DNA of 64,000 nt from Azolla caroliniana (taxonomy: Eukaryota; Plantae; Polypodiophyta), in the NCBI GenBank assembly GCA_043228905.1, contig JBHGNT010000015.1, positions 12,710,001-12,774,000 on the forward strand. Direction: 5' to 3'. The position numbers and the translations under genes are program-made. Below, one piece after another: positions 5,776 through 64,000 of this stretch (its first letter is position 1; every line of letters begins with the position of its first letter). The notes beneath the pieces were generated by a model. That model saw only the letters and a list, made by a program, of their open reading frames with translations, was not told where the DNA came from and made no database searches.

Positions 5776-5874
5776 TGTTAGGATTAGTACTAAGACAGAG
5801 AAGGAATTAGTACTAAAAGATGAGGATTAGTACTAAGAGAGGTGTAGAACTCTTGAGAGAAGGAAAGAGTGAGC

Positions 5875-5905
<31 letters not shown>

Positions 5906-6211
5906 GATGAGAGAATGATGATAAAAGATATATATTATGTGAAGAGAGTATTCAATAGTAGCTAGGAGGCTTAAGACTAGCGTTGAACCGATTTGGTTCG
6001 AAATAAGTCCTTGTGCCTCCTCTTATAGTGTTCTCAGGAGTACTCCTGAAGTTTCTAGAATGTTCTAGAGAAATCTGGAATATACATCAATTTTCTATAA
6101 TAAAACATCAATGAAAATAATATTTTACATATTACAATGTATGGTCTAATGGTCAAGAGCTCGACCCATGTAGCATAAGGTCATGGGTTTGAGTCTTGCC
6201 ATATCATGACA
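5776..6211 (-). repeat. 3' LTR of chromovirus A
   Basis: Closely similar to 21102-21549; contains a (GA)n tract. Confidence 0.93.
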
Positions 6212-6214
6212 CTA

Positions 6215-8594
6215 TCCCCCCTTTAAAACGACGAGTGTCACGAGTCGTTTTGGATTGAGGACCCGGTTTGTTTGGATATTGACGATGGAAGTCTTCAAGA
6301 AGAGCATGAGCATTGGCCACATTCTCTATCGGTTCCCAAGTACGCTCACTAGGACTATATCCTAGCCAATCGACTAGATAGTAGAGCTTGTTGCGAAAAA
6401 TCTTGGAATCAAGGATGGCAGCAACCTCGTACTCAGGTTCATCTTCAAGCTCGATCGGGGGTGGAGGCTATGTAATACGTCCTGGGATGGTGCTCTCTTT
6501 ATAGGGTTCGAGGAGAGAACTATGAAACACCGAATGTATCCGAAGTTGCGGAGGTAGATCGAGACGAAAAGCGACATCATTAATCTTTCCTATAATATGG
6601 AAAGGACCTAATCGCCGATAATCCAACTTCTCGCATGGGCGAGTAGTCTTGATGTGTCGTCGTAATAGCCATACCCGATCTCCAATGTTAAAATAGGATG
6701 GAAGTTGATGACGATCCGCATAAACCTTGTGTGTTTGTGGAGCTTGTTGGAGATGAGTAGATAAATCGGCTTGTATCTTGCGTAACCGCTCTAAACTATC
6801 CTCTGCGCAAGGATTTGTGGACAAGTCTGGGGTTTCAAATACACACCACCGGGGGTGAAAACCCGTATAAGCATAAAATGGCGTAACTTTAGTCGATGCG
6901 TGGACAGAGTTATTGTAGGCAAATTCGGCGAAGTGGAGAATATCTGCCCAGTCATCCTGATGATAGCTTAGAAAGCACCGAAGATACTGCTCCAACGTTT
7001 GATTTGTTTGTTCTGTTTGGCCATCGGTTTGTGGGTGGTAGCCGGAGGAGAGGTTACAAGTGACCTTGAGCATTTTCAAAAGGTGCTTCTAGAATTTTGA
7101 TACGAACTAGGGTCCACGGTCGTTGATGATACTATCGGGAAGGCCAAGATGTCGACATACTTCACGCATGACAATTTCATCAGTTTCTTCACTGGATATT
7201 TCTTTAGTACATGGCAAGAAATGAGCCATCTTCATATATCGATCTACGACTGTTAGAATCGCATTGAAACCCTTAGAGATTGGAAGATCTGTGATGAAGT
7301 CTAGAGCAATGGATTGCCATGGCTTGCTTGGAATTGTTAATGGTTCTAATAAACCATATGGATGATGCCTTGGCATTTTTGCTCTGCAGCATGTATCACA
7401 AGTCCGAACAAAATCTTTGACAAATTGTTGCATACGGGGCCACCAAAATTATCGTTGTACTAAATCTAATGTTTTAGTACTAATAAAATGCCCAGTTGTA
7501 TATGTGTCATGACAGTTTTGGACTACTTGAAGGCGGCAAGAACCATTAGGAACATACAACAGTTTATTAAAGAATAGTAATCCATCATGGTATTTGAATT
7601 GTCGATAGTCCGTACCTGGTGGTTGCGACTGTGAACAAGATGCTCGAGAGGGATCAATTTGTGCTAGAATGGCTTGGGCGAAAGCATCGGTCTTCAAGTC
7701 CTCACGTATAGTAGCGATAACGTGGGAATCCATGGGCATGCCAAGGACCTATGTTGCTTGCACTCGTGTCGGTCCCAAGATTACTTGCTTTTGGTTATCA
7801 AAAGCTGGCTCGCCGGGACGCGGTGCTAGGTACGAACGCCGTGATAATGCATCTGCCTTCCCTTGGTGCTTCCCCGGACGATATGTAATTTTCAAGTCGA
7901 AACGGGTGATAATGCATCTGCCTTCCCTTGGTGCTTACCCGCCGAGCTTGACGTCGATTTAACACACGAGCGTCCTGAAAGTAGGCAAGGTATTTGTGGT
8001 CACTGAATACGGTGACTTGATGAGAGGATCCCTCTAGAAAATGCCTCCATTGTGTAAAAGAGTCCACTATTGCCAATAGCTCCTTATCATGAATTTCATA
8101 GTTGATTTCGGCAGCGTCAAACTTGCGTGAGTGAAAAGCCACAAGATGTAGCTTCTCATCATTACCCCGTTGTGACAGAATGCTCCCTAATGCGAAATTC
8201 GATGCGTCTGCTTCGATAATGAATGGTTTTTCCGGATCAACATGAGCTAGAGTTGGAGTCGATGTAAATTCCTTTTTAAGACTCTCGAAAGCCATGTCCG
8301 CTTCTTTAGACCAAACGAACAATTGTCCCTTCCTGGTAAGCTGTGTGAGAGGCAGAACGAGCTTTGAGTAATCCTGTATGAACTTCCGATAAAAATTGGC
8401 AAAGCCTAAAAAGCATTGCACATCTCGCACCGAACGCGGAGTCTGCCACTCTACCACAGTTTTGACCTTAGCTGGGTCCATGGAGATGCCTTCCGAGGAA
8501 ATGACATAGCCCAGAAATTCCACCTGGTTGCACCCAAAACTACAGTTTTCCAGCTTTGTATAAAGACCATGTTCTCAAAGTCATTTTAGTACTA
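6215..8594 (-). pseudogene. chromovirus A pol 3' part (RT end, RNase H, integrase, chromodomain)
   Basis: FLGFANFYRKF, EADAS, HPQTDGQTE, GPF and YLVDWLGY motifs, with stops. Confidence 0.9.
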
Positions 8595-21101: not shown

Positions 21102-21191
21102 TGTCAGGATCAGTACTAAGACAGAGAAGGAATTAGTACTAAAAAATGAGGATTAGTACTAAGAGAGGTGTATAACTCTCGATAGAAGGAA

Positions 21192-21256
<65 letters not shown>

Positions 21257-21549
21257 TGATAAAAGATATATATTATGTGAAGAGAGTATACAATAGTAGC
21301 TAGGAGGCTTAAGACTGGCGTTGAACCGGTTTGGTTCAAAATAATGCCTTGTGCCTCCTTTTATAGTGTTCTCAGGAGTACTCCTGAAGCTTTTAGAATG
21401 TTCCAGAGAAATCTGGAATATACATCAATTTTCTATAATAAAACATAAATGAAAATGATATTTTATATATTACAATGTATGGTCTAATGGTCAAGAGCTC
21501 GACCCATGTAGCATAAGGTCATGGGTTTGAGTCTTGCTATATTATGACA
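21102..21549 (-). repeat. 5' LTR of chromovirus A
   Basis: Paired with 5776-6211; adjacent non-tRNA PBS at 21088-21099. Confidence 0.93.
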
Positions 21550-24028: not shown

Positions 24029-24732
24029 TGTCGTAGTGTATTCCACACACTACGTGAAAACCATAAAATAATATCTCTGATTTTAGATACATATAAATAA
24101 ATAAATAATATATCAAAATATTTATCACGTGCATAGGGCAGGATTCGAACCCTGGACCTCCAAGTAGATAAACCTCAACTTTATCATTGTAATAACTTAT
24201 CTTTAGTGTTATACATATAGATTTAATACGTATAAGACCTTTATTTACACATACCTTTATTAAAAGGTAAAAATCATGTATTCTTTAGGGTGTGAATATT
24301 TTATTTACACGTGACATTAAAAGTGACTCATGCACATCTAGCGTGCATGAGCCCTATACTTAGGAAATGACAAAGCATCACATGCACATTTAGTGTGCAT
24401 GGACACTTTTGGTGAAAAAGCATGAAGTCATGCTTAGCCTCTTCCATCTTTATATAAGGAGGAGAGAAATATGTATAAGGTTGTTGATTAATATACAAGG
24501 ATTGATCAATCCAATATATTCGTGGGATTCACGAATTTTGCCATCTAAATTACTCTTATAATCTAAATATTGTTTTAAATACACTAAACTCGTGGGATTC
24601 ACGAGATTGCTATCTTACTTCTCTTTCTACTATTCATAACTAGCCTTAAGTTGTATTCCTCTTCCTCCTAGTCCAAAACCTCGGCGGTTCCCACCCGACT
24701 CACGCAACGATCCGGAGCCGAAAGGCACGACA
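24029..24732 (+). mobile_element. Solo LTR of the tRNA-Trp-primed family (family C)
   Basis: TGTCGT...ACGACA termini, 4-bp TSD ACGG, homologous to 25485-26382. Confidence 0.9.
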
Positions 24733-24751
24733 ACGGGACTACGTAAGACTC

Positions 24752-24893: not shown

Positions 24894-27800
24894 TCACGTG
24901 ATACGTGTGAAAGTGAGTAGTGACTCTCGATGTTCAAGAACTTTACCAATGAATGTTGCAATCGAGAGTGCACATTGTGGTTGTGAGAGGAATTCATGCA
25001 AAGATTGGGCTCGATCGAAGAGATATGGAAAGCATGGTCGAATATGATCAAAGGCAGAGCATTGTATCAAAGTGTGATACTCAGACTCGCGAACTTGTTT
25101 AGGGCAAAGTGTACATAGCCGACCACTCTCATCACTTGTACCCCAACGCCTTATTTCACATCGCAATGCATGTGAGCTAAGTCGCATGGAAGCAATGGTT
25201 CGAATGGCAGATAACGGTATGGGCTCTAACATGTATGGATGTGTACGATTTCCCCGTTCCGCAAAGAATATGGTTTTGTAGTTAGGTGCAACATGTGTAG
25301 TATAATGTGTGAAGCGTGAGCCTCCACATTTGTCCCATGTCATGGTACATTGGCGTTGCAAAAATGCCTCATTTACAGAGGAATCTAATGATGCATCATG
25401 AAGCAAGTGTCTCGCATCCCATCTACCAAACCATTTTTCTACATCTTGCATCCAACCGGAACACAAAATTTTGCTTTTATGCGTTGTCGTAGTGTATTTC
25501 GTACACTACGTGAAAAAGTAAAAATAATATAACCGATTTAATTACATATAAATAAATAAAATAAGAATATCAAGATATTTATCACCAATAAATAAAATAA
25601 AAATATCAAGATATTTATCACGTGCATAGGGCAAGATTTGAACCTTGTACCTCCACGTAGCCAAACCTCAACTTTACCATTATGCTACCTTATCTTTAGT
25701 GTTCTATAAATAGATTTAATAACTATAACTGCTTTATTTGCGCCTACCTTTATTAAAAGGTAAATCATGTATTTTTAGAGTGCGTGAATATTTTATAGAA
25801 AAACGCAAGCGACTAAAAAGTGACTCATGCACATCTAGCGTGCATGAGCACTATATTTAGCAAATAAAAGCAAGGATTAGAAAAGCATCACATGCACATT
25901 TAGTGTGCATGAACATATTAGAAAAAAAGCATGTAGCTATGCTTAGTCTCTCCCATCACTACATAAGGATGGGGAGCACAATGTAATAGGTGTGTGAAAA
26001 ATATTTGGGAAATTGGATATATTTCCTAAAACACCAACAATCAATAAAATATACTCGTGGGATTCACGAAGTTTAAGATAATCTATCTCTTTCAATCTAA
26101 ATTCATATTCTTACATAAATATTGATTAATGTAATACTTGTGGGATTCACAAGGTTTGATCTCTTTTCTCAATCTACTCTAATCTATTCTAAATTATTTC
26201 AATTTATTACTACGATTTAGATAAACTAAAACAATTATACTTGTGGGATTCACAAGTTTCTATATCTCTTTCTAATAATCTATTCATTACTAGCCTCATC
26301 TCATATTCTTCTTTCTCCTAGTCCAAAACCTCGGCGGTTCCCACCCGACTCACGCAACGATCCGGAGCCGAAAGGCACGACACAGTTGGTGAACCCGACG
26401 TGAAGGCGGGTGGCAAGGAGATGGAGAATCAACAAGAGGCGATGAACATGATGATGATGATGTTCGAGAGAATGCTACAAGAACAACGCGAGATGTCGGA
26501 GATCACGACAGTAGTACAACGGCTCGTGCAACAGAACGGGCAATTCGATGGAAAGGACGTGTCACGCTATCTACGTGACTACAAAATGGAGATGTTGCGA
26601 TATGGTATCTCAGAAAGATTGCAAGTGTTATCTTTCAACCGGGTGGCTACGGATGAGCTTCAAGAGAGAATCCACGAGATACGACAACAAAGCCCGATGT
26701 GGGAGTCCTTTGAAGAAGCTATACGAGACACATATGACTATCTAAGACCGAAGCGGACGAGGACATGGTCCACGAACGGCGGTCAACAGTGGGTGAAAAG
26801 CGGCCACCGACTACCACCGAAGGAGAGCTTGATGCGGAAGGGTTCGGAGATGCATGAAAAGTCGCAAGTCGACATTGAAGGGGAGCTTAAAACCGAACCA
26901 AAGTCGAGGCCAACAAAGGACGAGGAGGAGGAAGATCGAGGACGAAAGGGTATCCCCACACCGGTTCCAGAGACTTCGGCGGCTGTGCCCGTGCACCAAC
27001 GTGAGACCGGAGAGACGGAATGTGTCGGTGGAAAAGTGGAGGACCGGAAGGGCAACGAGGAAGACAAAGTAAATGAGCACGAACGAAGGGATTCCTTCAC
27101 CATTGTTTCGGAGACTTCGGTACTGGAGCCCGGGTGTCGACATAACACCGAAGATAAGGAAAGTGGCGGCAACGAAACGAAGGTCGAAGCCGATGCATAC
27201 GAAGGAGAGATAGCCAAGGAGAACATGGCTATGGGTGAAACAACGGAAGATGATAATACCGAGGATTCCTACCCACTAATTCTAGAGACTTCGGCGGTTG
27301 TGTCCGAGAACCAACGTGAGACCGGAGAGACGGGAGGTGGCAACAAGGAAGGTAAAGTCGGAAGCCGGTTCGGATGGAAGATGATCCGTCTGAAATTCCG
27401 ATGTAAACAAAAGCATGACAACGCGAAGGTCGGGTCTACGATGGGAGAAGCATGTAATACGGAGCACGCACTACGGCACCAAAAGAAGCACGTGCTACGG
27501 CGTAAAGAGAAGCACACGCTACGGCGCAAAAAGAAGCACGCGCTACGGTGCAAAAATAAGCATGCACTACGGGGTAATACGGCGCATGCACTACGATGGA
27601 ATACGAAGCATGCGCTACGGCCTAATACGACGCATGCGCAACATCGAGAAATAAAGCATGCATTAAAGCCGCACAAGGACCTAACAGCGAGCGCGTATTC
27701 GGAGGTCGACATCGACGCGTGGGTAGAACCTACGGAAGACAAGCGCGGAGTGGAGAGAGACAACACACCGAGATGCTCAAGAGTACCACAAGGGACCATG

Positions 27801-30800
27801 ACAACCACTCATGGCAATGCAAAGAATGAACAAAGAATATGGTGGATCGGATGGCGACAATGGTTCGGGTGGAAAGAATGGGTCTACTCAAAATGGAGAG
27901 ACAAAGTTGACATAGCGGGACAAACGGAGGATGAAGGGGAGACAACGAGCATCGGCAACTTCGGCACATACCGGAGGATGTGCGGGTTCGGAGGGGGCGA
28001 GTGTCGTAGTGTATTTCGTACACTACGTGAAAAAGTAAAAATAATATAACCGATTTAATTACATATAAATAAATAAAATAAGAATATCAAGATATTTATC
28101 ACCAATAAATAAAATAAAAATATCAAGATATTTATCACGTGCATAGGGCAAGATTTGAACCTTGTACCTCCACGTAGCCAAACCTCAACTTTACCATTAT
28201 GCTACCTTATCTTTAGTGTTCTATAAATAGATTTAATAACTATAACTGCTTTATTTGCGCCTACCTTTATTAAAAGGTAAATCATGTATTTTTAGAGTGC
28301 GTGAATATTTTATAGAAAAACGCAAGCGACTAAAAAGTGACTCATGCACATCTAGCGTGCATGAGCACTATATTTAGCAAATAAAAGCAAGGATTAGAAA
28401 AGCATCACATGCACATTTAGTGTGCATGAACATATTAGAAAAAAAGCATGTAGCTATGCTTAGTCTCTCCCATCACTACATAAGGATGGGGAGCACAATG
28501 TAATAGGTGTGTGAAAAATATTTGGGAAATTGGATATATTTCCTAAAACACCAACAATCAATAAAATATACTCGTGGGATTCACGAAGTTTAAGATAATC
28601 TATCTCTTTCAATCTAAATTCATATTCTTACATAAATATTGATTAATGTAATACTTGTGGGATTCACAAGGTTTGATCTCTTTTCTCAATCTACTCTAAT
28701 CTATTCTAAATTATTTCAATTTATTACTACGATTTAGATAAACTAAAACAATTATACTTGTGGGATTCACAAGTTTCTATATCTCTTTCTAATAATCTAT
28801 TCATTACTAGCCTCATCTCATATTCTTCTTTCTCCTAGTCCAAAACCTCGGCGGTTCCCACCCGACTCACGCAACGATCCGGAGCCGAAAGGCACGACAG
28901 CGTCTTTTGGATCTTTTTGCTTGCTTCCCACGCAATTCTAGGAAGTCGATGTGAGGGACTTTTTTGAACCTTAAGCATGTATTCAACAACCCTTTCCATG
29001 GCCATGATCTCAATGGGAAGCGATCCCGTCTCAAGGAGGAGGAGGGTGTAGGGCGTTTGTTTCTTAACTTGTAGAAACTTGGTAAGAAAATGCTTTTGGA
29101 CATTTTCAAACTCTTTCCACATAGACTTAGGGATGCTACCGCCCCATACTTCCACCCCATAGAGAAGAACTGGTGTCACCAAAGTGTCAAAAAGATATTT
29201 CTTGAGGACCCAACACTTAATATCTCCAAGATTGCATGTGTTCTCAAATGCATAGTATGCTCGTTTGCCCGCCTTTAAGCGGCGTGTAGCACATTCATTC
29301 CATCTATGATTTGAAGGAACTTCAAGGCCAAGATATTTGAAGCTTTCCACACATTCAAGTGGCTCATTGTTGTACATAATGCATGGTTTATCTCTTTTTT
29401 GGCTCTTCACAAGCATAATCTTTGTTTTAGAGCTATTGACACTTAATTTAGTATGCATGCAAAAATTTTCCAATGCCTTCATAAGCTTTTGTGCATCTCC
29501 TAAAGTATTTGCAAAAAGCACTACGTCATCTGCATATAGCAAAAGCATAATCACAACATTCCCAATGGCAACTTCTTCAACACATTCTTCCTTTGCAAAC
29601 TTGGTAACCATTTCTTCCAATTCATCAATGCATAGACCAAATAGTGTTGGTGAGAGTGGGCATCCTTGCTTTACACCAATAGTGCTTTTGAAAAAATCTG
29701 AAAGTTTATCTCTCATGCGCACACAACATATAACCTTCTCATAAATTCGGGAAATTGCAAGCATATATTCACTTGGCACCTCAAGTTCTTCCATTCTCCT
29801 CCAAAGATGCTCACGAGGTACCATATCAAAAGCTTTCTTGAAGTCTACAAAGCAACAATATAAACCTTTACCTCTAAGGCGACTTTCCTCCATTAATACT
29901 CGAAGGGTGATAAGGTGATCAATGGTGCTATGGTGTTTCCGAAAGCCAGCTTGTCCATAAGCTCTCTTACCACTTTTTTCAGCCCATACACTTATCTTTG
30001 ATTCCATTATACATCCAAATAGTTTTGCCATTAATGAGCCAACCATGATGGTTCGATAGTTGTTTACATTATTTATATCTCCACCTTTATGTAAAGGTTT
30101 GATCCAATTTGTAGTCCAATCGTACGGCATACCATGTTGCAATGCATCATTAAACATATCGCTTATCCATATATGTGCTTCCTTTCCCGTCCATTTGAGC
30201 ATTTCAGCCTTTATACATTGAAGATCGCTTGCCTTTCGAGAGGCCAATTTCTTAAGTCCTATGCATATATCTTCAATTGTAAAGAAGGAAGGCATATGTG
30301 AAAGAGAACCATAACACATCATCTTTCCGGCAAGAGATAACTCATATAAATTCTTACAATGCAGAGACAAGTCGTGAAGAGTTAAGTCACCATAACTCTC
30401 AACACGTTTTCCCTTTAGATTTCCCCAAAATTTAGCACATGCATGTGCTTTCTCTTGCGTTTGGATAAATTGTTGAGTAACTTCCCATATTCTTCTCTTT
30501 CTTTGAATAAGCCTTTTATACTCATGCAAATGCTTTTGGTAATTCTCTTTATCCTTAACTACATCCAAAACCATAAGGCACTTTCGAGCTTCACGACATT
30601 CTTTATCAAACCATTTTCTCCTAAGTTTCTTGGTGCATTTCCAAGATGTGCGGTTGGTCGAAAAACATTTGTTTGTACATGAGAGAATGACTTTCTTGAA
30701 AGCTTCCCATTTGCATTCTAGTGTGGCACCATGTTGTATCTTTGTCATTTGTAACATATCCTCAACCATCTTGGAATACATGGGTGCTCGCTTAAGGTTC

Positions 30801-31687: not shown

Positions 31688-31693
31688 GTGTCC

Positions 31694-32563: not shown

Positions 32564-32831
32564 TGTAGGGACAAACCGTACGGGAAAAGAGAGACAAAGA
32601 GGGAAGCAGAGAGAATGTACCTTTCACTCAATTTAGGGCTTCAAAATCTACCTTCCGTTTGAGGAACCGTGGGGCAAAGATGGCTGCGGATGAAAATGCT
32701 CATAACTTCTCGCCACGGTAACGGAATTCAGTAAATGAACATTCTTTAGAAAGCTCTCTCAAAGAGCTTTCCAACGAGCTATAGAACGTAGAAAACGATG
32801 ACCTGGCCGGAGTGAACTTACAGAGAGCTTT

Positions 32832-32921
<90 letters not shown>

Positions 32922-33253
32922 AAAAGAGAGATAGCGAGGATGAGAGAGAGAGAGAGATGATGATAACAACCAATATATTATGTGAAGGATAAGTACAAAA
33001 TGGCTAAGAGGCTTAAAACTGGCGTTGAACCAATTTGGTTCAACATAATGCCTAGTGCCTTCTTTTATAGTGTTCTCAAGAGTAATCCTGAAGCTTCTAG
33101 AATGTTCCAGAGAAATCTAGAATATACATTAATTTCCTATAATAAAACTTAAATGAAAATAATATCCTACGTATTACAATAGATAGTATAATGGTTAAGA
33201 GCTCGACCCATATAACATAAGGTCATGGGTTCGAGTCTTGCCATATCATGATA

Positions 33254-36200
33254 CTATTTCCCCCTTAAGGCGACGAGTGGAACGAGTCGGCGCTGATTGC
33301 GAACTGGGTTTGTCCGGATACTTTCGATGGAACTCAGCAAGAAGATCTTGAGCATTGGCGACATGCTCCGCGGGTTCCCAAGTACGTTCACTCGGACTAT
33401 AGCCGAGCCAATCGACCAAATAATAAAGTTTGTTGTGAACAAATTTGGAGTCGAGGATGGCAACAACTTCATACTCCGGGCCGACGTCTAACTCAAGCGG
33501 GGGCGGCGGTGGTGTAACACGATCGGGAATAGTGTTTGCTTTATAAGGTTCAAGAAGAGAACTATGGAAGACCGGATGTATCCGAAGATGTGGAGGAAGA
33601 TCAAGGTGGAACGTGACATCATTAACCTTACAGGTAATATGGAAAGGACCGAGTCGTCGATAATCCAACTTGTCGCACGGTCGAGTAGTCTTGATGTGAC
33701 GACGTAAAAGCCATACTCGATCTCCGATGGCAAAAGAGGAGGGAAGCCGATGACGATCCGCGTAAGTCTTCTGTGTCTCTTGAGCATGACGAAGATGAGT
33801 AGAGAGATCCATTTGGATCTTGCGTAGTCTCTCCAAATGATCCTCAGCACGAGGATTGGTAGGTAGCTCTGGGGTGTCGATCACCGACCAGCGAGGATGA
33901 GAACTGGTATAAGTGTAGAATGGGGAGACTCGAGTCGAGGAGTGAACAACATTATTATACGCAAACTCCGCAAAGTGGAGAATCTCGGCCCAATCGTCCT
34001 GCTGATAACTCAGGAAACACCGGAGATATTGCTCCAGCGTTTGGTTTGTTCGTTCCGCCTGCCCATCGGTCTGAGGATGGTAGCCGGAGGAGAGGTTGCA
34101 AGAGACTTTGAGCATCTTGAAGAGATGTTGCCAAAATTTGGAGAAGAATTGCAGTCCTCGGTCACTGATGATACTGTCTGGGAGACCATGATGCCAAAAT
34201 ACCTCACGCATGACAAGGGCGGCGGTTTCCTCGCTAGTGATGGCCTTAGTACACGGCACAAAATGTGCCATCTTCGTATATCAATCGACGACGGTTAAGA
34301 TAGCATCGAACCCCTTCGAGACCAGCAGATCTGTGATAAAGTCAAAACAAATAGACTACCACGGCTTACTTGGAATCGGTAAGGGTTCCAACAAGCCATA
34401 TGGATAGTGTCATGGCATCTTTGCTCGGCAGCAAGCATCATAGGTCTGAACGTAGTCGTCGACAAAACGTCGCATATGGGGCCACCAAAAGGATCGTTGA
34501 ACTAGATCCAACGGCTTAGTGCTACCAAAATGTCCCGCCATATGGGTGTCGTGAAAACTTTGGACGATTTGAAGGCGACAGGAGCAATTGGGGACATATA
34601 CAAGCTTTTTAAAGAATAACAAACCATCATGATATTCGAATTGTCGGTAGTCCATACCTGGTTGTTGAGACTGGGAACAGGATACCCGAGAGGTATCAAT
34701 GTGCGCAAGAATGTCTTGAGCAAAAGTGTCCGTCTTCAAGTTCACACGTATGGTGTCGGTAATCTGGGAATCCATTGGAGTGTGAAAAATCCGCGTTGTG
34801 TGCAATCGTGTTGGTCCCAAGATTACTTGCTTTTGATTATCGAACGCCGGATCACCAGGACGAGGTGCAAGATATGAACGCCGTGATAGCGCATCTACTT
34901 TTCCTTGCTGCTTCCCCGATCGATATGTGATTTTGAAGTCGAAACGTGTGAGGAATTGAGCCCACCTAGCTTGCCGTTGATTTAGCACCCGAGCGTTCTA
35001 GAAATAAGCAAGGTTTTTGTGATCACTAAAGACGATGACCTGATGTGGAGAGCCCTCTAAGAAATGCCGCCATTGCACAAAGGAATCCACGATGGCTAAT
35101 AACTCCTTGTCATGTATTTCATAGTTGATTTCCGCGGCATCGAATTTGCGCGAATGGAAAGCCACAGGATGTAACTCTTCTTTATCTCCTTGTTGAGAAA
35201 GGATGCTACTGAGGGCGAAATCCGATGCGTCGGCCTCCATGATGAATGGTTTCTTTGTATCCACATGAGCTAGAATAGGAGTTGATGTAAAGGCTTTCTT
35301 AAGATGCCGAAAAGCCATGTCCGCTTCATTGGACCAAAGAAATGCTTGTCCCTTCTTCGTAAGTTGTGTGAGAGGTAAAATAATCTTTGAGTAATCCTAT
35401 ATAAACTTGCGATAGAAGTTAGCAAAACCTAGAAAACATTGCACATCTCGTACCGACTATGGAATTTGCCACTCTAGCACAGTTTGGACTTTAGCTGGAT
35501 CCATGGAGATGCCCTTTGAGGAGATGACGTAGCCTAGAAATTCCACTTGCTTGCAGTCAAAGCTACATTTTTCTAGCTTGGCATAAAGACCATGCTCGCG
35601 GAGTCGTTTTAGTACTAATAGTACATGAGAATCGTGCTCTTCCTGGGTCTTCGAATAAATCAATAGATCATCCAGATAGATGATCAAACAGATATCCAGG
35701 AGGTCTCTGAATATATCATTTGCCATGTGTTGGAAGACTGCGGGTGCATTGGTTAGACCGAACGACATAACAGTATATTCGAAATGCCCATACCGCGTGC
35801 GAAAGGCGATCTTCCATTCATCTCCCGGTTGGATCCACACGAGGTTATACGCTCCTCGTAGATCGATCTTTGTAAAAAACTTGGCACCATTAACTCGCTC
35901 TAAAAGACTTGATATAAGAGGAAGTGCATACCTATTACGGATGGTGACTTTATTTAAGCCGCGGTAATCAACGACGAGACGAAGTGAGCCATCTTTCTTC
36001 TCGACAAATAAGATGGGTGCACCGGCCGAAGATTTCGAATGACGGATGAACCCGCTTGCCAAGTTCTCCTCTATGTAGGCTCGAAGGACTTCTAACTCGG
36101 TGGGGGACAAGTTGTAAATTGGTTCCCATGGTGGCTCTACTCCCGGTTGTAGATCGATGGGACAATCATAGGGACAACGATGAGGAAGAGTACCGGCTTT

Positions 36201-37987: not shown

Positions 37988-38055
37988 AGTATAGGGAAAA
38001 GGGTAGGAGGATGAGGGAGAACGACAAGTAGGCTTGAGGGAAATTTGGTTCAAAC

Positions 38056-38505
38056 TGTTAGGAATAGTACTAAAGCAGAGATGGAATTAGTACTAAAGAA
38101 GGGAAGTACTATTAGTACTAAGAGGGCGGGATTGCGTAAGACTCCCAAGAGAGAGAGAGAGAGAGAGAATAGAAAAGAGAGATAGCGAGGATGAGAGAGA
38201 GAGAGAGAGATGATGATAACAACCAATATATTATGTGAAGGATAAGTACAAAATGCCTAAGAGGCTTAAGACTAGCGTTGAACCAATTTGGTTCAACATA
38301 ATGCCTAGTGCCTTATTTTATAGTGTTCTCAGGAGTAATCCTGAAGCTTCTAGAATGTTCCAGAGAAATCTAGAATATACATTAATTTCCTATAATAAAA
38401 CTTAAATGAAAATAATATCCACGTATTACAATAGATGGTATAATGGTCAAGAGCTCGACCCATATAACATAAGGTCATGGGTTCGAGTCTTGCCATATCA
38501 TGACA
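38056..38505 (-). repeat. 5' LTR of chromovirus B
   Basis: TG...CA termini; matches the reassembled 3' LTR. Confidence 0.9.
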
Positions 38506-45595: not shown

Positions 45596-45626
<31 letters not shown>

Positions 45627-48690: not shown

Positions 48691-51600
48691 TGTCAGGGAT
48701 AGTACTAGAGGAAAGGAGAATTAGTACTAAAAGTAGAGGAGAAGAATAAGGATTAGTACTAAGAAGGGAAAGAGTTGTGAGAACCATGTGAGAGGAGAGA
48801 GAGAGAGATAATGATGACAACAAGAAGTATATTATATTATAAGAAGAAAGATACATGAACAACTAGGAGGCTTAAGACTGGTGTTGAACCGAATTGGTTC
48901 TCAATAATGCCATGTGCCTCTTTTTATAGTATGTTTAGGAGTACTCTTGATATTTCTAGAATGTTCCAAAGAAATCTAGAATATGCATGGAGTGAAATAA
49001 TAAATGGAAATAATTATTTTTGTATTACAATCTATAGCTTAATGGTAAGGCTTCAACTTATGTGACACAAGGTCATGGGTTCAAAATCTTTTTGAAGCCA
49101 TACCATGGTATATCATGACACTACTCCCCCCACTTAAGACAATGAGTAGGACCTGGCTTGTCAGTATATTACCGATGGAAGTCCTCAATAAGAGCTCAAG
49201 CATTTACCACATTCTCGACTGGTTCCCAAGTACGCTCACTTGGACTATAGCCCAACCAATTGATCAAATAATAGAGCTTGTTGCGAACAATCTTGGAATT
49301 GAGGATGGTAGCAACTTCGTACTCCGGTCTAGCTTCAAGCTCGATCAGGGGTGGAGGTGGTGTAATACGATTCGGGATAGTGTTGACGCGATAGGGTTCG
49401 AGAAGAGAATTATGAAAAACCAAATGTATCCGTAGTTGTGGAGGTAGATCAAGACGATAAGTGACATCATTAATTTTTTTGATAATACGGAAAGGACCTA
49501 ATCATCGATAATCCAATTTATCGCATGGTTGAGTAGTCTTGATATGCCGTCGTAATAGCCATACCCGATTTCCAATGTCAAAACAAGATGGAAGCCGATG
49601 ATGATCCACATAAGCCTTTTGTGTTTGTTGAGCTTGATGTAAATGGGTAGATAGATCTACTTGTATCTTGCGTAGCCGCTCCAAATGATCCACTGCACGA
49701 GGATTTGTGGATAACTCTAGAGTTTCGAGTACACACCATTGAGGATGATAGCATGTATAAGCATAAAATGGTGTAACCCTAGTCAATGAGTGGATAGAGT
49801 TATTGTAAGAAAATTTGGCAAAGTTGAGAATATCCGCCCAATCATCTTGTTGATAGCTTAGATAACACTGAAGATACTGTTCCAGCATTTGATTTGTTCG
49901 TTCTGCTTGTTCGTTTGTTTGAGGATGATAGCCGGAGGAGAGGTTACAAGTGACATTAAGCACTTTGAAGAGATGCTTCCAGAATGTCGAGACAAATTGA
50001 GGTCCACGGTCGCTGATGATATTATCCAGGAGGCCATGATGCCGAATTACCTCATGCATGACAACTTCGACGGTTTCTTCACTAGTGATTGCCTTAGTAC
50101 AAGACAGGAAATGTGCCATCTTAGTATATCAATCTACTATTGTTAAGATCGCATCAAATCCCTTTGAAACTAGAAGATCTGTGATAAAATCTAGAGCAAT
50201 GGACTGCCACGGCTTGCTTGGAAGTGGTAATGGTTCCAATAAACCATATGGATGATGTCTTGGCATCTTTGCTCTACAACATGTATCACATGTCCAAACA
50301 TAGTCTTTGACAAATTGTCGCATATGAGGCCACCAAAATGATCGTTGTACTTAATTCAACGTTTTAGTACTACCAAAATGTCCCGTTGTATATGTGTCAT
50401 GACAATTTTGGACTACTCGAAGGCGACAAGAACCATTGGGAACATACAAGATTTTCTTAAAGAATAGTAATCGATCATGACATTTGAATTGTCGATAATC
50501 CGTACCTAGTTGTTGTGACTGTGAACAGGTTGCCCACGAGGAATCAATTTGCGCCGAAATGTCTTGAGTGAAAGCGTCTGTCTTCAAGTCTTCACATATG
50601 GTCTCGATAATACGAGAATCCAATGGAGTATCACAAACCCACGTTGCTTGTAGTCGTGATGGTCCTAGGATGACTTGCTTTTGATTATCGAATGCTAGAT
50701 CACCGGGACGAGGTGCTAGATACGAGCGTCGCGATAATGCATCTGCCTTCCCTTGTAATTTTGAAGTCGAAGTGAGTGAGGAATTGGGCCCACCGAGCTT
50801 GACGTTGATTTAATACACGAGCATTCTAGAAATAGGCAAGGTTTTTGTGATCACTAAATACAATGATTTGATGAGAAGATCCCTCTAAAAAATGCCTCCA
50901 TTGTGCAAAAGAGTCAACTATTGCTAATAGCTCCTTGTCATGTATCTCATAGTTTATTTCGGCGGCGTCAAACTTGCGTAAGTGGAAAGCCATAGGATGT
51001 AGTTTTTCATCATCGCCTTATAGTGACAGAATGCTACCAAGGGTGAAATCCGACGTGTCTGCCTCCATGATGAACGGTTTTTTCATATCAACATGAGCTA
51101 GAATAGGAGTTGATGTAAATGCTTTCTTAAAACTTACAAAACCCGTGTCCGCTTCCTTAGACCAAACAAACAACTGCCCCTTCTTGGTAAGCTGTGGGAG
51201 AGGCAAAATAAGCTTTGAGTAGTCCTATATAAACTTGCGGTAGAAATTTGTGAAGCCTAGAAAACATTGCACATCTCGCAACAAACGGGGAGTCTGCCAC
51301 TCTACCACTATTTTGACCTTAGTTGGATCCATGGAGATGCCTTCCGAGGAGATGACATAGCCTAGAAATTCCACATGATTGCAGTCAAAACTACATTTTT
51401 CCAGTTTTGCATAAAGACCATGTTCTCGAAGTCGTTTTAGTACTAATAGTACATGAGAATCATGCTCTTCTTGAGTCTTCGAATAAACTAGTAGATCATC
51501 CAAATAGATGATCAAACAAATATCCAAGAGATCTTGGAATATATCATTTGCCATGTGTTGGAAGACTATTGGCGCATTGTGAGACCAAATGGCATAACCG

Positions 51601-53601: not shown

Positions 53602-56600
53602 CGTCATGATATGGCAAGACTCGAACCCATTACCTTATGGTATATGGGTCGAGCTCTTAACCATCACACCATCTATTGTAATTCATAGAATATTATTTTC
53701 ATTTATGTTTTATTATAAGAAAGTAATGTATATTCTAGATTTCTCTAGAACATTCTAGAAGTTTCAGGATTACTCCTGACAACACTATAAAAGAAGGCAC
53801 TAGACATTATGTTGAACCAAATTGGTTCAACACCAGTCTTAAGCCTCTTAGCCGCTTTGTACTTATCTTTTCACATAATATATTAGCCGCTGTCATCATC
53901 TTTCTCTCTCTCTCATCCTCGCTATCTCTCTCTCCTCTTCTCACTTCCTCTCTCGGGAATCTCACGCATCCCGTCCTCTTAGTACTAATAGTACTTCTCT
54001 TATTAGTATTAATTCCATCTTTGCTTTAGTACTATTCCTGACAGTTTGAACCAATTTTTCTTCCTTTCCTCCTACCCTTTTCCCTATACTATAGCTACTG
54101 TTAGTGCCCAAGAATATCAATCCGTTTTCTCCGAGTTACAGTGCCTAAAAGAAAAGTTTGTTGCCCTGGAACAAGAAAACCAACGGTTGATAGGGGATCT
54201 GCAACAAATCGCTCTCAAAAAACAACAAACGCAACAACAACATGGCGAGTTAGCGTTACGGGTACAACAACTCGAAGCAGCGTTGCAACAACAAGGATCA
54301 AGTCCCCAAGGATTTCATAAAGAGCCCAAGATTGGACTTCCTGTGAAATTTGATGGAACATGATCGCAATTCCGGGGATTCCTTAATCAGGTACGCTTAG
54401 TCATCCAGATGCATCCTTCCCGATATCCCACTGATGCATCTCGAGTCGGCCTAATAGGCACGTTACTTAGCGGCTCAGCCTTGGCATGGTTCACTCCACT
54501 TCTAGAGAAACAATCACCCTTGCTTAATAACTTTGAAGATTTTATTGGTGAGTTTAAAGCCTGCTTTGGAGATACCGACAACATCAGGACGACGATCAAC
54601 AAGATCTGAAGATTGCGTCAAGCCGATCGTCTAGCCTCGGCCTACGCGGTAGATTTCCGTCTACTCGCCTCAGATATCCCCTGGGATGATCAGGCCCTCA
54701 TGGAGCAGTTTCGCTACGGCTTGCGCAACGATGTCAAAGACTTGCTTTTAACCTTCCCCGAGGAACCAAAGTCTCTTACGGAGGCAATCAGTCGAGCGGT
54801 CCGATGCGACAACCGCCTTTTCGAACGGCGTTCGGAACGTCAGTTACAAATACCACGCTCTCGGCCGGAACCCACATACGGCTCAGTCACAGCTAAACCG
54901 TTTGCACGCGATGTACCTCAAGCCAATATTCCGACACCGATGGAGATTGACACCATGTGTCAACGCGGCCCGTTATCGGAAGAAGAAAAGCAACGACGAC
55001 GTGCCAATCGATTATGTCTTTATTGTGGTGGACCAGGGCATATCGCCATCAATTGTCCTCATAGGCCAAAAAGACAGGTAAATCAAATCGTCGCCTGTAC
55101 TAAACCCGAGTCAATTATTCCCTTCGGAGTGTCTGATAGTATTAATAGTACTAATAGGGTGTCATATAGTATTCATAGTACTAATAGCCCAAGTATCTCA
55201 AATAAATTTGAAGTCCTTAGTCAATTAGATGAAGAGTTAAACGATTGAGTCCAGCCAAAATAGGAGCCGTTTGGTTGGACAGCAGCCCTAGATCTGTACA
55301 ACCTATTAGTGGTTCCATTCCCTCTAAGCAAGTTAGCAATGTGTTCCTAGCCCAAGTCATTGTTAGTACTAAAAGTACTCCTCCAGTACCCTTCCTAGCA
55401 CTTTTAGATTCCGGAGCTAATTCCTGTTTCATGGATCGAAATTTTGCCCAAGCTTCTCAGATATCCTTAAGAAAACTTCATTGTCCCGCATTTGTAGTAG
55501 TTATTGATGGTCGTCCCATTGCTTCCGGGAATATTGTAGAAGAATCAGAACCCATTCAAGTTGTCCTAGGTAGTTTTGTGTGTGTAATATCATTTAATAT
55601 AATTAGTAGTCCAAAGCATCCCATTGTCCTGGGATTACCTTGGTTTGAGTTACATAATCCAGCCATAGATTGGAGAACAAGAGAAGTCCGATATCGACCA
55701 CCCCAAGAATCTACTCACCGAGTTTCGACCATTTCACTCTATCAATTACGCGAAGAAGGACACAAGGAGGCAATGTTCCTATTTGCAATATCAGTACATC
55801 CTTCCAGCACTATTAAGAAGGACTCCTCAGTACAACTTCCGACAAAATATCATCCTTATGCCGATGTATTTGACAAGGTAAAAGCCGGTACCCTTCCTCA
55901 TCACCGTCCCTATGACTGTCCCATCGATTTACAACTAGGAACCGAGCCACCATGGGGACCAATTTACAACTTGTCACCCACCGAGTTAGAAGTCCTTCGA
56001 GCCTACATAGAGGAGAACTTGGCAAGCGGGTTCATCCGTCATTCGAAATCTCCGGCCGGTGCACCCATCTTCTTTGTCAAGAAGAAAGATGGCTCACTTC
56101 GTCTCGTCGTTGATTACCGCGGATTGAATAAGGTCACCATCCGGAATAGGTATGCACTTCCTCTTATATCAAGTCTTTTGGAGTGAGTTAATGGTGCCAA
56201 GTTTTTTACCAAAATCGATCTACGAGGAGCGTATAACCTCGTGCGGATCCGACCGGAAGATGAATGGAAGACTGCCTTTCGCACGCGATATGGGCATTTC
56301 GAGTATACTGTTATGCCGTTCGGCTTAACCAATGCACCCGCAGTCTTCCAACACATGGCAAATGATATATTCAGAGACCTCTTGGATATCTATTTGATCA
56401 TCTATCTGGATGATCTATTGATTTATTCGAAGACCCAGCAAGAGCACGATTCTCATGTACTATTAGTACTAAAACGACTCTGCGAGAATGGTCTTTATGC
56501 CAAGCTAGAAAAATGTAGTTTTGACTGCAAGCAAGTGGAATTTCTAGGCTACATCATCTCCTCAAAGGGCATCGCCATGGATCCAGCTAAAGTCCAAACT

Positions 56601-59270
56601 GTATTAGAGTGGCAAATTCCACGGTCGGTACGAGATGTACAATGTTTTCTAGGTTTTGCTAACTTCTACCGTAAGTTTATACAGGATTACTCGAAGATTA
56701 TTTTACCCCTCACACAACTTACGAAGAAGGGCCAAGCATTTCTTTGGTCCATTGAAGCAGATATGGCTTTTCGGCATCTTAAGAAAGCCTTTACATCAGC
56801 ACCGATTCTAGCTCATGTGGATACCAGAAAACCATTCATCATGGAGGCCGGCGCTTCAGATTTCGCTCTCGGTAGCATCCTTTCTCAACAACGAGATAAA
56901 GAAGAGTTGCATCCGGTGGCTTTCCATTCGCGCAAATTCGATGTCACGGAAATCAACTACGAAATACATGACAAGGAGTTATTAGCCATCGTGGATTTAT
57001 TTGTGCAATGGCGGCATTTCTTAGAGGGCTCTCCACATCAGGTCATTGTCTTTATTGATCATAAAAATCTTGCTTATTTCCAGAACGCTCGCGTACTAAA
57101 TCGACGGCAAGCTCGATGGGCGCAATTCCTCACGCATTTCGACTTCAAAATCACATATCGACTGGGGAAGCAGCAAGGAAAAGCAGATGCACTATCACGA
57201 CGTTCGTATCTTGCACCTCATCCTGGATCCAACATTTGATAATCAAAAGCAAGTAATCTTGGGACCAACACGATTGCACACGACACGGATTTTTCACACC
57301 CCGATGGATTCACGGATTACCGATGACATACGTGCAAACTTGAAGACAGATAGCTTTGGTCAAGACATCCCGGCGCACATTGATACTTCTCGGGCATCCT
57401 GTTCTCAGTCTCAACAACCAGGTATTGACTACCGACAATTCGAATATCATAATGGTTTGTTATTCTTTAAAAAGCGCCTATATGTCCCCGATTGCTTCTG
57501 TCGCCTTCAAATCGTCAAGCATTGTCACGACACCCATACAGCGGGACATTTCAGTAGTACTAAGACGTTGGAGCTAGTGCAACGATCTTTTTGGTAGCCC
57601 CACATGCGCCGTTTTGTTGACGACTACGTTCGGACTTGTGATGCTTGCTGCCGAGCAAAGATGCCACGACACCATCCATATGGCTTGTTGGAACCCTTAC
57701 CGATTCCAAGTAAGCCGTGGTAGTCTATTTGTCTTGATTTTATCACAGATCTGCCGGTCTCGCAGGGGTTCGATGCTATCTTAACCGTTGTTGATCGATA
57801 TACGAAGATGGCACATTTCATTTCGTGTACTAAGGCCATCACTAACGAGGAAACCGCCGCCCTAGTCATGCGTGAGGTATTTCGGCATCATGGCCTCCCA
57901 GACAGTATCATCAATGACTGAGGACCGCAATTTGTCTCCAAATTTTGGCAGCATCTCTTCAAGATGCTCAAGGTCTCTTGCAACCTCTCCTCCGGCTACC
58001 ATCCTTAGACCGATGGGCAGGCGAAACGAACAAACCAAATGCTGGAGCAATATCTCCGGTGTTTCCTGAGTTATCAGCAGGACGATTGGGTCGACATTCT
58101 CCACTTTGCGGGAGTTTGCGTATAATAATGTTGTTCACTCCTCGACTTGAGTCTCCCCATTCTATGCTTATACCGGTTCTCATCCTCGTTGGTCGGTGAT
58201 CGACACCCCGGAACTACCTACCAATCCTCGTGCCAGGGATCATTTGGAGAGACTACGCAAGATCCAGACAGATCTCTCGACTCATCTTCGTCATGCTCAA
58301 CAAACATAGAAGACTTACGCGGATCGTCATCGGATTCCCTCCTCTTTTGCCATCGGAGATCAAGTATGGCTCTTACGTCGTCACATCAAGACTACTCGAC
58401 CATGCGACAAGTTGGATTATCGACGACTCGGTCCTTTCCGTATTACGGGTAAGGTTAATGATGTCACATTCCGCCTTGATCTCCCTCTGCAGCTTCAGAT
58501 ACATCCAGTTTTCCATTGTGCTCTTCTTGAACCTTATAAAGCCAACACCATTCCCGATCGTGTTACACCACCGCCGCCCCTGCTCGAGTTGGACACCAGC
58601 CCGGAGTATGAAGTTGCTGCCATCCTCGATTCCAAACTTATTCGCAACAAACTTTATTATTTGGTTGATTGGCTTGGTTATAGTCCGAGCGAACGCACTT
58701 GGGAACCCGTCGAGCATGTTGTCAATGCTCAGGATCTGCTTGCTGATTTCCACCGAAAGTATCCGGACAAACCCGGTTTGCAATCAGCACCGACTCGTTC
58801 CACTCGTCGTCTTTCAGGGGGAGATAGTGTCATGATATGGCAAGACTCGAACCCATTACTTTATGGTATATGGGTCGAGCTCTTAACCATCACACCATCT
58901 ATTGTAATTCATAAGATATTATTTTCATTTATGTTTTATTATAAGAAAGTAATGTATATTCCAGATTTCTCTAGAACATTCTAGAAGTTTCAGGATTACT
59001 CCTGACAACACTATAAAAGAAGGCACTAGACATTATGTTGAACCAAATTGGTTCAACACCAGTCTTAAGCCTCTTAGCCGCTTTGTACTTATCTTTTCAC
59101 ATAATATATTAGCCGTTGTCATCATCTTTCTCTCTCTCTCATCCTCGCTATCTCTCTCTCCTCTTCTCACTTCCTCTCTCGGGAATCTCACGCAGTCCCG
59201 TCCTCTTAGTACTAATAGTACTTCTCTTATTAGTACTAATTCCATCTCTGCTTTAGTACTATTCCTGACA
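53602..59270 (+). mobile_element. Tcn1-like chromovirus (copy F), full length, inserted in the gag of element E
   Basis: LTRs 53602-54043 and 58828-59270 are highly similar. gag ~54090-55248, pol to ~58830 with a chromodomain, PPT AGGGGGAGATAG. No clean TSD. Confidence 0.93.
55236..55290 (+). promoter_or_regulatory. Putative -1 ribosomal frameshift signal at the gag/pol junction
   Basis: G TTA AAC in gag phase, a 6-nt spacer, then stem GTCCAGCCAAA/TTTGGTTGGAC. pol is in the -1 frame. Also present in copies A and B. Confidence 0.7.
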
Positions 59271-62303: not shown

Positions 62304-63291
62304 TGTCGTGCCTTTCGGCTCCAGATCGTTTGCGTGAGTTGGGTGGGAACCACCGGGGTTTTGGACTAGGAGGAGGAAGAATTTGAGGCTAATCTAGTTA
62401 TGAATATGAATAGATTATAAGAAAGAGATATAGAAACTTGTGAATCCCACAAGTATAATTGTTTTAGTTTATCTAAATCGTAGTAATAAATTGAAATAAT
62501 TTAGAATAGATTAGAGTAGATTGAGAAAAGAGATCAAACCTTGTGAATCCCACAAGTATTACATTAATCAATATTTATGTAAGAATATGAATTTAGATTG
62601 AAAGAGATAGATTATCTTAAACTTCGTGAATCCCACGAGTATATTTTATTGATTGTTGGTGTTTTAGGAAATATATCCAATTTCCCAAATATTTTTCACA
62701 CACCTATTACATTGTGCTCCCCATCCTTATGTAGTGATGGGAGAGACTAAGCATAGCTACATGCTTTTTTTCTAATATGTTCATGCACACTAAATGTGCA
62801 TGTGATGCTTTTTATTTTATTTTATTTTATTTCCTAAGTATAGGGCTCATGCACGCTAGATGTGCATGAGTTATTTTTAGTGTCTCGTGTTTTTTCTTTT
62901 TCATATATTAAAGAAATACACGATTTACCTTTCAATAAAGGTATGCATAAATAAAGGTCTTATACATATTAAATCTATATTTAAAACACTTAAGATAATT
63001 TAATGTAATGGTAAGGTTGGGGTTTGTCAACGTGGAGGTGTAGAGTTCGAATCACGCCCTGTGTAGTAGTGAGTATTTCCTTTCTTTTTACATTTATGTC
63101 TCTTTATCCGGCTCTTCCTTGCCGGTATGCCGTTTTCCTCCTTGCCGGTATGCCGTTTTTCCTCCTTGCCGGTATGCCGTTTTCCTCCTTGCCGGTATGC
63201 CGTTTTCTTCCGGTTCTCACCGAGCACTCCATTCTCTATCCGGAGGGACAAAAATATAATTTCCACATAGTGTGCAACCTACACTACGACA
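62304..63291 (-). mobile_element. Solo LTR of family C (mosaic) inserted in the RT/RH region of element E
   Basis: TGTCGT...ACGACA termini, TSD ACGT at 62300-62303 and 63292-63295, and a ~22-bp tandem repeat at 63113-63205. Confidence 0.9.
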
Positions 63292-64000
63292 ACGTCCATA
63301 TTGCGGAGCCACTCTACGGGTTGTTGAAGAAAGGACGCAAGTTCGAGTGGAGCAAGGAGCATGCGGAGTCGATCCGGAAAATGAAAGAAGCGCTTACCGC
63401 GGCACCGGCGCTCCAGAAAGCAGTCTATGATAAACACGTTCTGATTTATGTAACCATAGACACGAGTCCGACCGGGATCGGATGGGTGATCAACCAATAG
63501 GATGAGAACGGCGTAAGGTTTCCCCGTCCGGTTCGGTGCGAAAGTACTTAGCACGCGATAACAAGGGTACGCCCATGTTAAACTCGAACTTTGGGGTATC
63601 GTTTCGGCGGTCAAGGCCGACAAAGACCACCTGATCGGGATAGAGGTAATAATAGAGACGGACTATTTACCGATTCTCGGTATGGTTTCCGGATGCGCGA
63701 GCTAGACCTGGCAATGCTCAGGTGGATAGCGTACATTAAGTCCCTGAATCTAGAGATACGACACATTTCCGGGAAAGACAACGCCATGGCCGACATGCTT
63801 TCAAGAGAAAGGTTTGATGACAAAAACGGCACTCCGACGCTTAATGAGTTTGATGAGAGCAAGTACGATGGCTCCAGATCAGTGGATTCTTGAGAACGAT
63901 GGCGACAGACGCGGCATGGACAAAGGAAGAGCCTAGCCGGATCCGGAAGAAAGCGTACTGATTCTTCCTACGAGATGGGAGCATATGGAAGCACCCGAAG

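What the first reader, a model, noticed from the sequence alone, without database searches (positions are those of the whole stretch)
6135..6211. Antisense tRNA-type Pol III promoter (A and B box) at the U3 end of every chromovirus LTR
Seen: TGGTCTAATGG (6142-6152) ... AAGGTC ATG GGTTTGAGTC (6186-6195), with tRNA spacing (46 nt from the T8 to the T54 equivalent) and a variable-loop-like AGGTC. Other copies have TAGTATAATGG/GGTTCGAGTC (33184/33228), TGGTATAATGG/GGTTCGAGTC (38436/38480), TAGCTTAATGG/GGTTCAAA (49035/49078) and TGGTGTGATGG/GGTTCGAGTC (minus strand, 53671/53627). Substitutions fall mostly at degenerate positions of the TRGYNNARNGG consensus. No cloverleaf forms. The unit reads antisense to the element, toward the LTR edge. 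Known: TFIIIC-bound A/B boxes act as chromatin barriers, and Cassandra TRIMs carry 5S Pol III promoters in their LTRs. Inference: a built-in insulator protecting the LTR promoter, or a source of antisense Pol III RNA.
Basis: partly seen in the sequence, partly recalled or inferred. Interest (0 to 1): 0.8.

Follow-up and report, generated by a model that had tools for sequence, protein, structure and literature searches.

The report
Backward tRNA-type promoter in retrotransposon LTRs
A high-copy plant retrotransposon family carries a backwards, tRNA-type promoter sequence, predicted to fold into a hairpin, at the start of its end-repeats; two unrelated repeats carry similar ones, and it likely recruits the tRNA-gene transcription machinery beside the element's own promoter, though only part of it is conserved and no RNA evidence was available.

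Summary
All 7 family LTRs in the window that keep their U3 end carry an antisense A box and B box, 32-33 nt apart, in the first ~80 bp; shuffles give this in 1 of 20,000. The host is a self-priming, Tcn1-like chromovirus of a land plant, shared by at least four organism labels. It is not a tRNA gene. First, the unit folds into a ~20-bp rod hairpin, and conservation follows pairing: paired positions vary about 1% or less, the unpaired 5' part of the A box 12-27%, more than the flank. Second, two LTRs that do not align with it (a tRNA-Trp-type-primed family; a gypsy in locus L015) carry the same antisense U3 unit, with perfect boxes in the youngest copies and a T5 terminator. 'Every chromovirus LTR' is too wide: it is one family. 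Best reading (0.45): an outward-facing TFIIIC/Pol III site back-to-back with the Pol II promoter. Main rival (0.3): a promoter relic kept as a replication hairpin. No expression or binding data. Closest known: Helenus (sense, non-autonomous) and foamy-virus U3 Pol III genes. The scan noted tRNA-like LTR units before in other genomes.

The parts
6142..6152 (+). A box (tRNA positions 8-19), antisense to element E1
   Evidence: 0 mismatches
6186..6195 (+). B box; this copy has C56>T (CpG decay)
6149..6202 (.). Predicted rod hairpin, about 20 bp with single-base bulges; left arm starts in the A-box 3' end, right arm contains the B box
5776..6211 (-). 3' LTR of chromovirus copy E1 (family A); unit fills LTR positions ~10-77
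6212..6223 (-). Polypurine tract of E1, directly before the LTR
21102..21549 (-). 5' LTR of E1 (94.5% to 3' LTR; 5-bp TSD); A box 21480, B box 21524
32815..33253 (-). 3' LTR of E2 (U5 end lost; left limit approximate); perfect A box 33184 and B box 33228
38056..38505 (-). 5' LTR of E2; perfect A box 38436-38446 and B box 38480-38489
38343..38360 (-). Heat-shock-element-like GAAnnTTCnnGAAnnTTC array upstream of the TATA box (motif recalled)
38316..38322 (-). TATA box of the LTR Pol II promoter (LTR position ~184)
38278..38286 (-). Predicted transcript 5' end, complementary to the primer-binding site (self-priming)
38045..38053 (-). Self-priming-type PBS of E2
48692..49120 (-). 3' LTR of diverged copy E3 (~74% to E2): perfect A box 49035; damaged B box 49078-49088 looped out; T5 at 49089-49093; a new right arm 49092-49106 pairs with its changed left arm
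53602..54043 (+). 5' LTR of E4 (98.2% to 3' LTR); unit on minus strand, A box 53671-53661 (A14>G), B box 53627-53618
58828..59270 (+). 3' LTR of E4; A box 58897-58887, B box 58853-58844 (minus)
33246..34280 (-). Integrase C-terminal part with chromodomain (E2)
25485..26382 (+). Family B 5' LTR (tRNA-Trp-type PBS, label recalled; 4-bp TSD) with perfect antisense A box 25687-25677, B box 25644-25635 and T5 31 nt later
28002..28899 (+). Family B 3' LTR, 100% identical to 5' LTR; unit at 28204 (minus)
24030..24735 (+). Family B solo LTR; B box perfect, A box with 2 mismatches (24194, minus)
62304..63293 (-). Family B solo LTR; unit at 63001 (plus), 1+1 mismatches

Best explanation
A tRNA-type A/B-box unit sits backwards in the first 80 bases of every intact LTR of one chromovirus family, and it likely still works as an outward-facing TFIIIC/RNA polymerase III site, with its predicted ~20-bp hairpin the most strongly kept part. 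Origin (inferred): a tRNA-derived SINE head or tRNA copy captured long ago and copied into both LTRs at each cycle. Working (inferred): TFIIIC binds mainly the B box near the LTR edge, and TFIIIB would load on the AT-rich tract behind the A box, back-to-back with the LTR's heat-shock element, TATA box and start site. The complex would block host read-through and chromatin spreading into the 5' LTR promoter. Where the A box is intact it would also make a short antisense RNA that begins with the rod hairpin and runs out of the LTR to the first T run. Shown: sequence, position, orientation, recurrence in three unalignable LTRs, variation pattern. Predicted: the hairpin. Untested: binding, transcription, barrier effect.
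For: Motif pair beyond chance. Same antisense orientation, U3 position and 32-33 nt spacing in three LTRs with no other alignable sequence: family A, family B, and the putative LTR after a WFGPY-type integrase tail without chromodomain in L015. Boxes are perfect in the youngest family-B element (LTRs 100% identical) and in L015, each followed by T5 31-35 nt on, although all other tRNA features are gone. E3, 74% identical to E2, differs from it at 3 A-box positions, all permitted ones, and keeps a B-box-like segment as a loop while rebuilding the stem with another arm. The B-box CpG is intact in 38 of 49 copies versus 42-68% at four other CpG columns. Family is old and abundant: 1,445-2,781 contigs laid per run in four organism labels. 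TFIIIC sites block Pol II read-through in yeast (PMC4228148, abstract); Pol III genes in LTR U3 are shown for foamy viruses (PMC3993851, passages); tRNA-derived SINE RNAs refold into bulged stems (PMC2408557, passages).
Against: Strict A-box positions vary as much as flank in two of four runs; unpaired A-box 5' part varies 12-27% while paired bases vary about 1% or less. The youngest family-A element has A14>G in both LTRs. B-box conservation equals that of the neighbouring terminal 16 nt, and the read table is blind within ~31 nt of its ends, so it says nothing on the B box. Family A has no terminator in the LTR; first T4 is 52-91 nt out in three LTRs and absent within 400 nt in three. In E3 a T5 directly follows a broken B box, so a Pol III transcript would stop before the rebuilt arm. 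In four family-B copies the boxes are no more invariant than flanks (6/11 and 6/10 versus 28/40, 20/32, 14/25). Only 1 of 21 hairpin pairs shows a two-sided change. The CAA before the A box may just be the reverse of the common LTR TGTAA motif, also seen in a copia LTR without boxes.
Confidence: 0.45

Rival explanations
1. The promoter is a relic. The captured tRNA-like sequence is kept because it folds into a hairpin about 9 nt after the polypurine tract in the element's own RNA or cDNA, used in plus-strand priming, packaging or end handling; the boxes persist only where they overlap the stem.
For: Variation follows pairing, not boxes. The hairpin forms on the element strand and as DNA as well (z -2.7 to -4.0 RNA in six near-identical-type copies, -3.7 to -4.8 DNA). 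E3 rebuilt the stem across a T5. No terminator in family A.
Against: Families B and D have perfect boxes and terminators but no significant fold (z -0.8, +0.9, +0.3, -0.7). The stem keeps a bulged T of the B box. E3 retains both an A box and a looped-out B-box-like segment. Little covariation.
Confidence: 0.3
2. Neutral hitch-hiker: an old SINE or tRNA-bearing solo-LTR insertion next to the constrained LTR end; the hairpin is SINE ancestry plus template-switch correction of an inverted repeat.
For: A-box drift; family-B boxes not above flank; SINE heads naturally show boxes without cloverleaf; Kojima notes that many Repbase LTRs hold tRNA-like pieces.
Against: About 45 nt stay near-invariant across four organism labels; three lineages share orientation and region; no SINE body, tail or TSD is visible around the units (by eye).
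Confidence: 0.15
3. The antisense tRNA-like sequence anneals a host tRNA (D and T arms) to the 3' end of the genomic RNA, as the split primer sites of Ty1 and Ty3 do.
For: Antisense orientation near the RNA 3' end is what annealing needs; Ty1 and Ty3 pair with T and D arms (PMC4974528, passages); other gypsy lineages of this genome were noted to carry tRNA ends at the PPT position (earlier notes, untested here).
Against: Family A self-primes and has a normal PPT. The unit's T-stem halves do not pair, so it is not the complement of a real T arm; the sites are buried in the hairpin. Family B's sequence after the B box matches the tRNA end implied by its PBS in only 1 of 4 copies (by eye).
Confidence: 0.07

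Closest known systems
Helenus / TRIMp3 (Kojima 2024, PMC10886601; read parts 1-4 of 6, figure legends, two supplement passages)
   Same: tRNA-derived sequence inside both LTRs, A and B boxes kept, no functional tRNA; one plant family (Selaginella).
   Different: Helenus are 311-1263-bp non-coding TRIMs whose unit is proposed to transcribe the element; the supplement consensuses I saw have it in sense. Here it is antisense, at the U3 edge, in a 5.7-kb gag-pol chromovirus with its own Pol II promoter. The paper states that counterpart autonomous elements must use Pol II and did not follow up the non-TRIM LTR hits.
Cassandra TRIM (as described in PMC10886601)
   Same: Pol III promoter inside plant LTRs.
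   Different: 5S type, non-autonomous, transcribes the element itself, shown experimentally.
Foamy-virus LTR U3 Pol III miRNA genes (PMC3993851, passages)
   Same: Pol III units giving hairpin RNAs in U3 of an autonomous LTR retroelement.
   Different: Animal retroviruses, several units with terminators, expression shown; here one tRNA-derived antisense unit without terminator in family A and no expression data.
Tcn1 chromoviruses, Tf1/sushi group (PMC6317226 and PMC2864245, passages)
   Same: Chromodomain integrase, self-priming, fungal-like RT, plant host.
   Different: The passages searched mention no tRNA-like or Pol III unit in the LTR.
tDNA/ETC TFIIIC sites as Pol II roadblocks (PMC4228148, abstract) and tRNA-derived SINE RNAs such as SB1 (PMC2408557, passages)
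   Same: Likely way of working: B-box binding blocks read-through; refolded bulged stems bind dsRNA-binding proteins.
   Different: Host loci or free SINEs, not a fixed part of an LTR.

Membership tests
Pol III type 2 promoter | A box and B box at workable spacing | tested here: met
   0-1 mismatches in 6 of 7 LTRs, spacing 33 (32 in E3); 1 of 20,000 shuffles
Pol III type 2 promoter | Box positions conserved above flank | tested here: inconclusive
   A box above flank in 2 of 4 runs only; B box low-variation but confounded with stem and LTR end
Pol III type 2 promoter | T-run terminator downstream | tested here: not met
   None inside family-A LTRs except E3; met in families B and D
Pol III type 2 promoter | Plant upstream TATA (~-35) and CAA (-7 to -3) (PMC3082873) | tested here: inconclusive
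   Conserved AT-rich/TATA-like tract present; CAA lies at +1 to +3, not -7 to -3, and may be the reverse of TGTAA
Pol III type 2 promoter | TFIIIC/Pol III occupancy and transcript | not testable with these tools
   No RNA holder listed
tRNA gene | Cloverleaf / covariance-model hit | tested here: not met
Helenus (TRIMp3) | tRNA-derived sequence with A/B boxes in LTRs | tested here: met
Helenus (TRIMp3) | Short non-coding TRIM | tested here: not met
   5.7-kb element with gag, PR, RT, RH, IN, chromodomain
Helenus (TRIMp3) | Unit oriented to transcribe the element | tested here: not met
   Antisense in all copies; sense in the Helenus consensuses seen
Tcn1 chromovirus | Chromodomain with aromatic cage on integrase | tested here: met
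   PF00385; Tyr, Trp, Tyr at the cage positions by eye, positions recalled
Tcn1 chromovirus | Self-priming instead of tRNA PBS | tested here: met
   8-12-nt PBS complement at LTR 218-230, ~35 nt after TATA, in 3 of 3 elements with a 5' LTR
Tcn1 chromovirus | RT groups with the Tf1/sushi clade in a tree | not tested
   Named hits are fungal and amphibian at 57-63%; no reference tree built

The most novel reading that the evidence does not exclude
Several unrelated gypsy lineages of this plant group have converged on a built-in, outward-facing Pol III unit in U3. It insulates the LTR promoter at any insertion site and, in the chromovirus, makes a VA/SB1-like hairpin RNA that decoys or feeds the host RNAi machinery; tens of thousands of LTRs would then seed TFIIIC boundaries across the genome.
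Probability: 0.25. Interest if true: 0.8.

Novelty: new variant of a known kind. Interest (0 to 1): 0.52.

Why it matters
Known Pol III promoters in LTRs (Cassandra, Helenus) drive small non-coding elements in sense. An antisense unit fixed in a high-copy autonomous element cannot do that, so it must do something else or nothing. If TFIIIC binds, each new insertion would carry its own boundary and possibly a hairpin RNA, giving a testable answer to how heterochromatin-targeting chromoviruses keep their promoter usable. If only the hairpin matters, it is a case of a tRNA-derived sequence recycled as a replication signal.

Tried and rejected
No whole genome held, so no genome-wide LTR alignment. 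No RNA holder listed: says nothing on expression. tRNA gene: rejected; donor tRNA not identified. B-box invariance in the read tables: rejected as an edge effect, since no row lies within ~31 nt of either end; one search also showed only 40 of 84 rows. The 44 metagenome loci were picked by a pattern covering the A box and left arm, so those columns were not used as conservation evidence; 8 of 50 units with indels or truncation were dropped before the pair count. Strand of the hairpin: undecided (G-U 30 versus A-C 21, biased sample; z slightly lower on the tRNA-sense strand in 6 of 7). Searches for relatives: viral contigs none, genome contigs one distant locus, handles not held. L015 integrase tail: no Pfam hit on two short pieces, so it rests on the WFGPY motif. 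Host lineage: a TAF15 exon hits land plants at about 55-69% with no close relative; not resolved. Unit absent from family C LTR and L045 and from the two copia LTR regions (window-wide scans). Literature searches found no description of an antisense A/B unit in an autonomous plant LTR; one search returned 0 papers; subscription papers and Repbase notes were not searchable.

Full report
Setting. The window is a nest of retroelements around a TAF15-like host gene whose exon hits land plants. Four copies (E1-E4) of one gypsy family carry gag, protease, RT, RNase H, integrase and a chromodomain. LTR pairs are 94.5% (E1) and 98.2% (E4) identical; E3 is about 74% identical to E2. The family has a normal polypurine tract and a PBS that is complementary to a site about 35 nt after the LTR TATA box (8-12 nt), which is the self-priming layout described for Tcn1 (PMC6317226, passages). 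Named RT relatives are fungal and amphibian. I call it Tcn1-like; no tree was built.

Observation. The cited boxes are all present, plus two unlisted copies. All 7 LTRs that keep U3 have the unit antisense within the first 80 bp (about 95 bp in E3). A strict pair arises in 1 of 20,000 shuffles; none of 117 background tiles has 0-1 mismatches. It is not a tRNA gene. A pattern scan gave 44 more copies in metagenome contigs, and sequencing runs under four organism labels hold the element with 1,445-2,781 contigs laid on U3 per run.

Hairpin. From the last four bases of the A box to just past the B box the unit folds into one rod of about 20 pairs with single-base bulges; z is -2.9 to -4.6 on the tRNA-sense strand and -2.7 to -4.0 on the element strand for six copies, and -2.4/-1.8 for E3. 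It also folds as DNA. Other LTR windows reach similar z values over the palindromic heat-shock array and the self-priming site, so a low z alone is not unique. Covariation is slight: 1 of 21 pairs in 20 copies. E3 is the informative case: its left arm has changed, a new right arm pairs with it, and the B-box-like segment is looped out and followed by T5. This is one old copy with a damaged B box.

Conservation test. In contigs not chosen by motif (summarised), paired left-arm positions vary about 1% and the paired ATGG end of the A box 0%; the loop varies 5-6%, the flank 8-12%, and the unpaired 5' part of the A box 12-27%. Strict A-box positions are below flank in runs X1 and X5 and above it in X11 and X12. 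G10>A is the main change and is tolerated by the looser RRY form of the consensus (recalled). These values are depth-weighted and limited to contigs at least 80% alike. The table cannot see the B box (edge effect). In 50 aligned copies the B box has 3.8% mismatch, against 6-19% in the LTR interior but 4.0% and 1.5% in the terminal 16 nt; its core is intact in 32 of 42 ungapped units (8 of 50 dropped), with losses mostly CpG decay.

Other families. Family B (4-bp TSD, tRNA-Trp-type PBS, orphan 542-aa ORF with only unnamed homologues) has an antisense unit 140-200 bp into its LTR, perfect in the element with identical LTRs (4 of 20,000 shuffles), decayed in three other copies, and followed by T5. 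Across four copies its boxes are not more invariant than flanks, and it does not fold. Locus L015 holds a third case: a perfect antisense pair with T5, about 70-120 bp into a putative LTR behind a non-chromodomain integrase tail; only one copy, and the LTR limits are inferred. The three LTRs do not align. Family C, two copia LTR regions and the distant chromovirus locus L045 lack the unit.

Mechanism. I favour an outward-facing TFIIIC/Pol III site (0.45), because three unrelated LTRs share orientation, region and spacing, and two of them have boxes and terminator without any hairpin. It would sit back-to-back with the heat-shock element, TATA box and start site and block read-through, as TFIIIC sites do in yeast (PMC4228148, abstract); a transcript would be a bulged stem like SB1 SINE RNA, which binds HYL1 (PMC2408557, passages). 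Against it: A-box drift, A14>G in the youngest family-A element, and no terminator in family A. The rival (0.3) is that family A now keeps the sequence only as a hairpin next to the PPT. A neutral relic (0.15) and tRNA annealing as in Ty1/Ty3 (0.07; PMC4974528, passages) are less likely. No binding or RNA data were available.

Comparison. Helenus has tRNA-derived A/B boxes in LTRs but is non-coding, short and, in the consensuses seen, sense; the paper mentions other tRNA-like LTR hits in Repbase without describing them, so related cases may be catalogued there. Foamy viruses have Pol III hairpin genes in U3. Six searches found no report of this antisense layout in an autonomous plant element. 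Earlier scan notes list tRNA-like units in fungal LTRs and TRIMs and, in this genome, tRNA ends at the PPT position of other gypsy lineages; none was tested here.

Verdict. Real, old and recurrent; a new variant of a known kind; function open. Interest 0.52.

Noticed in passing
window 25485-28899, 24030-24735, 62304-63293; L015 ~136, L017 ~1589: Family B makes 4-bp target duplications that are all R-C-G-K (GCGT, ACGG, ACGT in the window; ACGT beside two locus ends): an apparent CpG-centred target preference.
   Followed up: partly
window 26421-28049 (+): Family B internal ORF, 542 aa, no Pfam hit; 21 unnamed homologues only. LTRs 100% identical, so a very recent insertion.
   Followed up: partly
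window 38343-38370 and matching sites in all family-A LTRs: Tandem heat-shock-element-like array 20-40 bp before the TATA box; the family may be heat-inducible.
   Followed up: partly
L015 1000-1629: Third LTR-like region with a perfect antisense A/B pair and T5, behind a gypsy integrase tail without chromodomain.
   Followed up: partly
window 52386-64000: Family C gypsy with tRNA-Trp-type PBS, interrupted by E4 and a family-B solo LTR; its LTR has no A/B unit. E4 shows no clear TSD.
   Followed up: partly
window 10170-11070 and 14580-16150: Two arrays of palindromic 20-40-nt repeats in opposite orientation, possibly the ends of a DNA transposon nested in E1; ORFs between them lack Pfam hits.
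   Followed up: no
window 41467-45310 (-): Multi-exon TAF15-like host gene (RRM, RanBP2 zinc fingers) among the retroelements.
   Followed up: partly
window 45577-46820; 22008-23302; 28835-31693: 1.2-kb TATG/TATTG microsatellite; tandem ~336-bp repeats with one copy at 5493-5792; a LINE ORF2 of 952 aa cut by family B.
   Followed up: no
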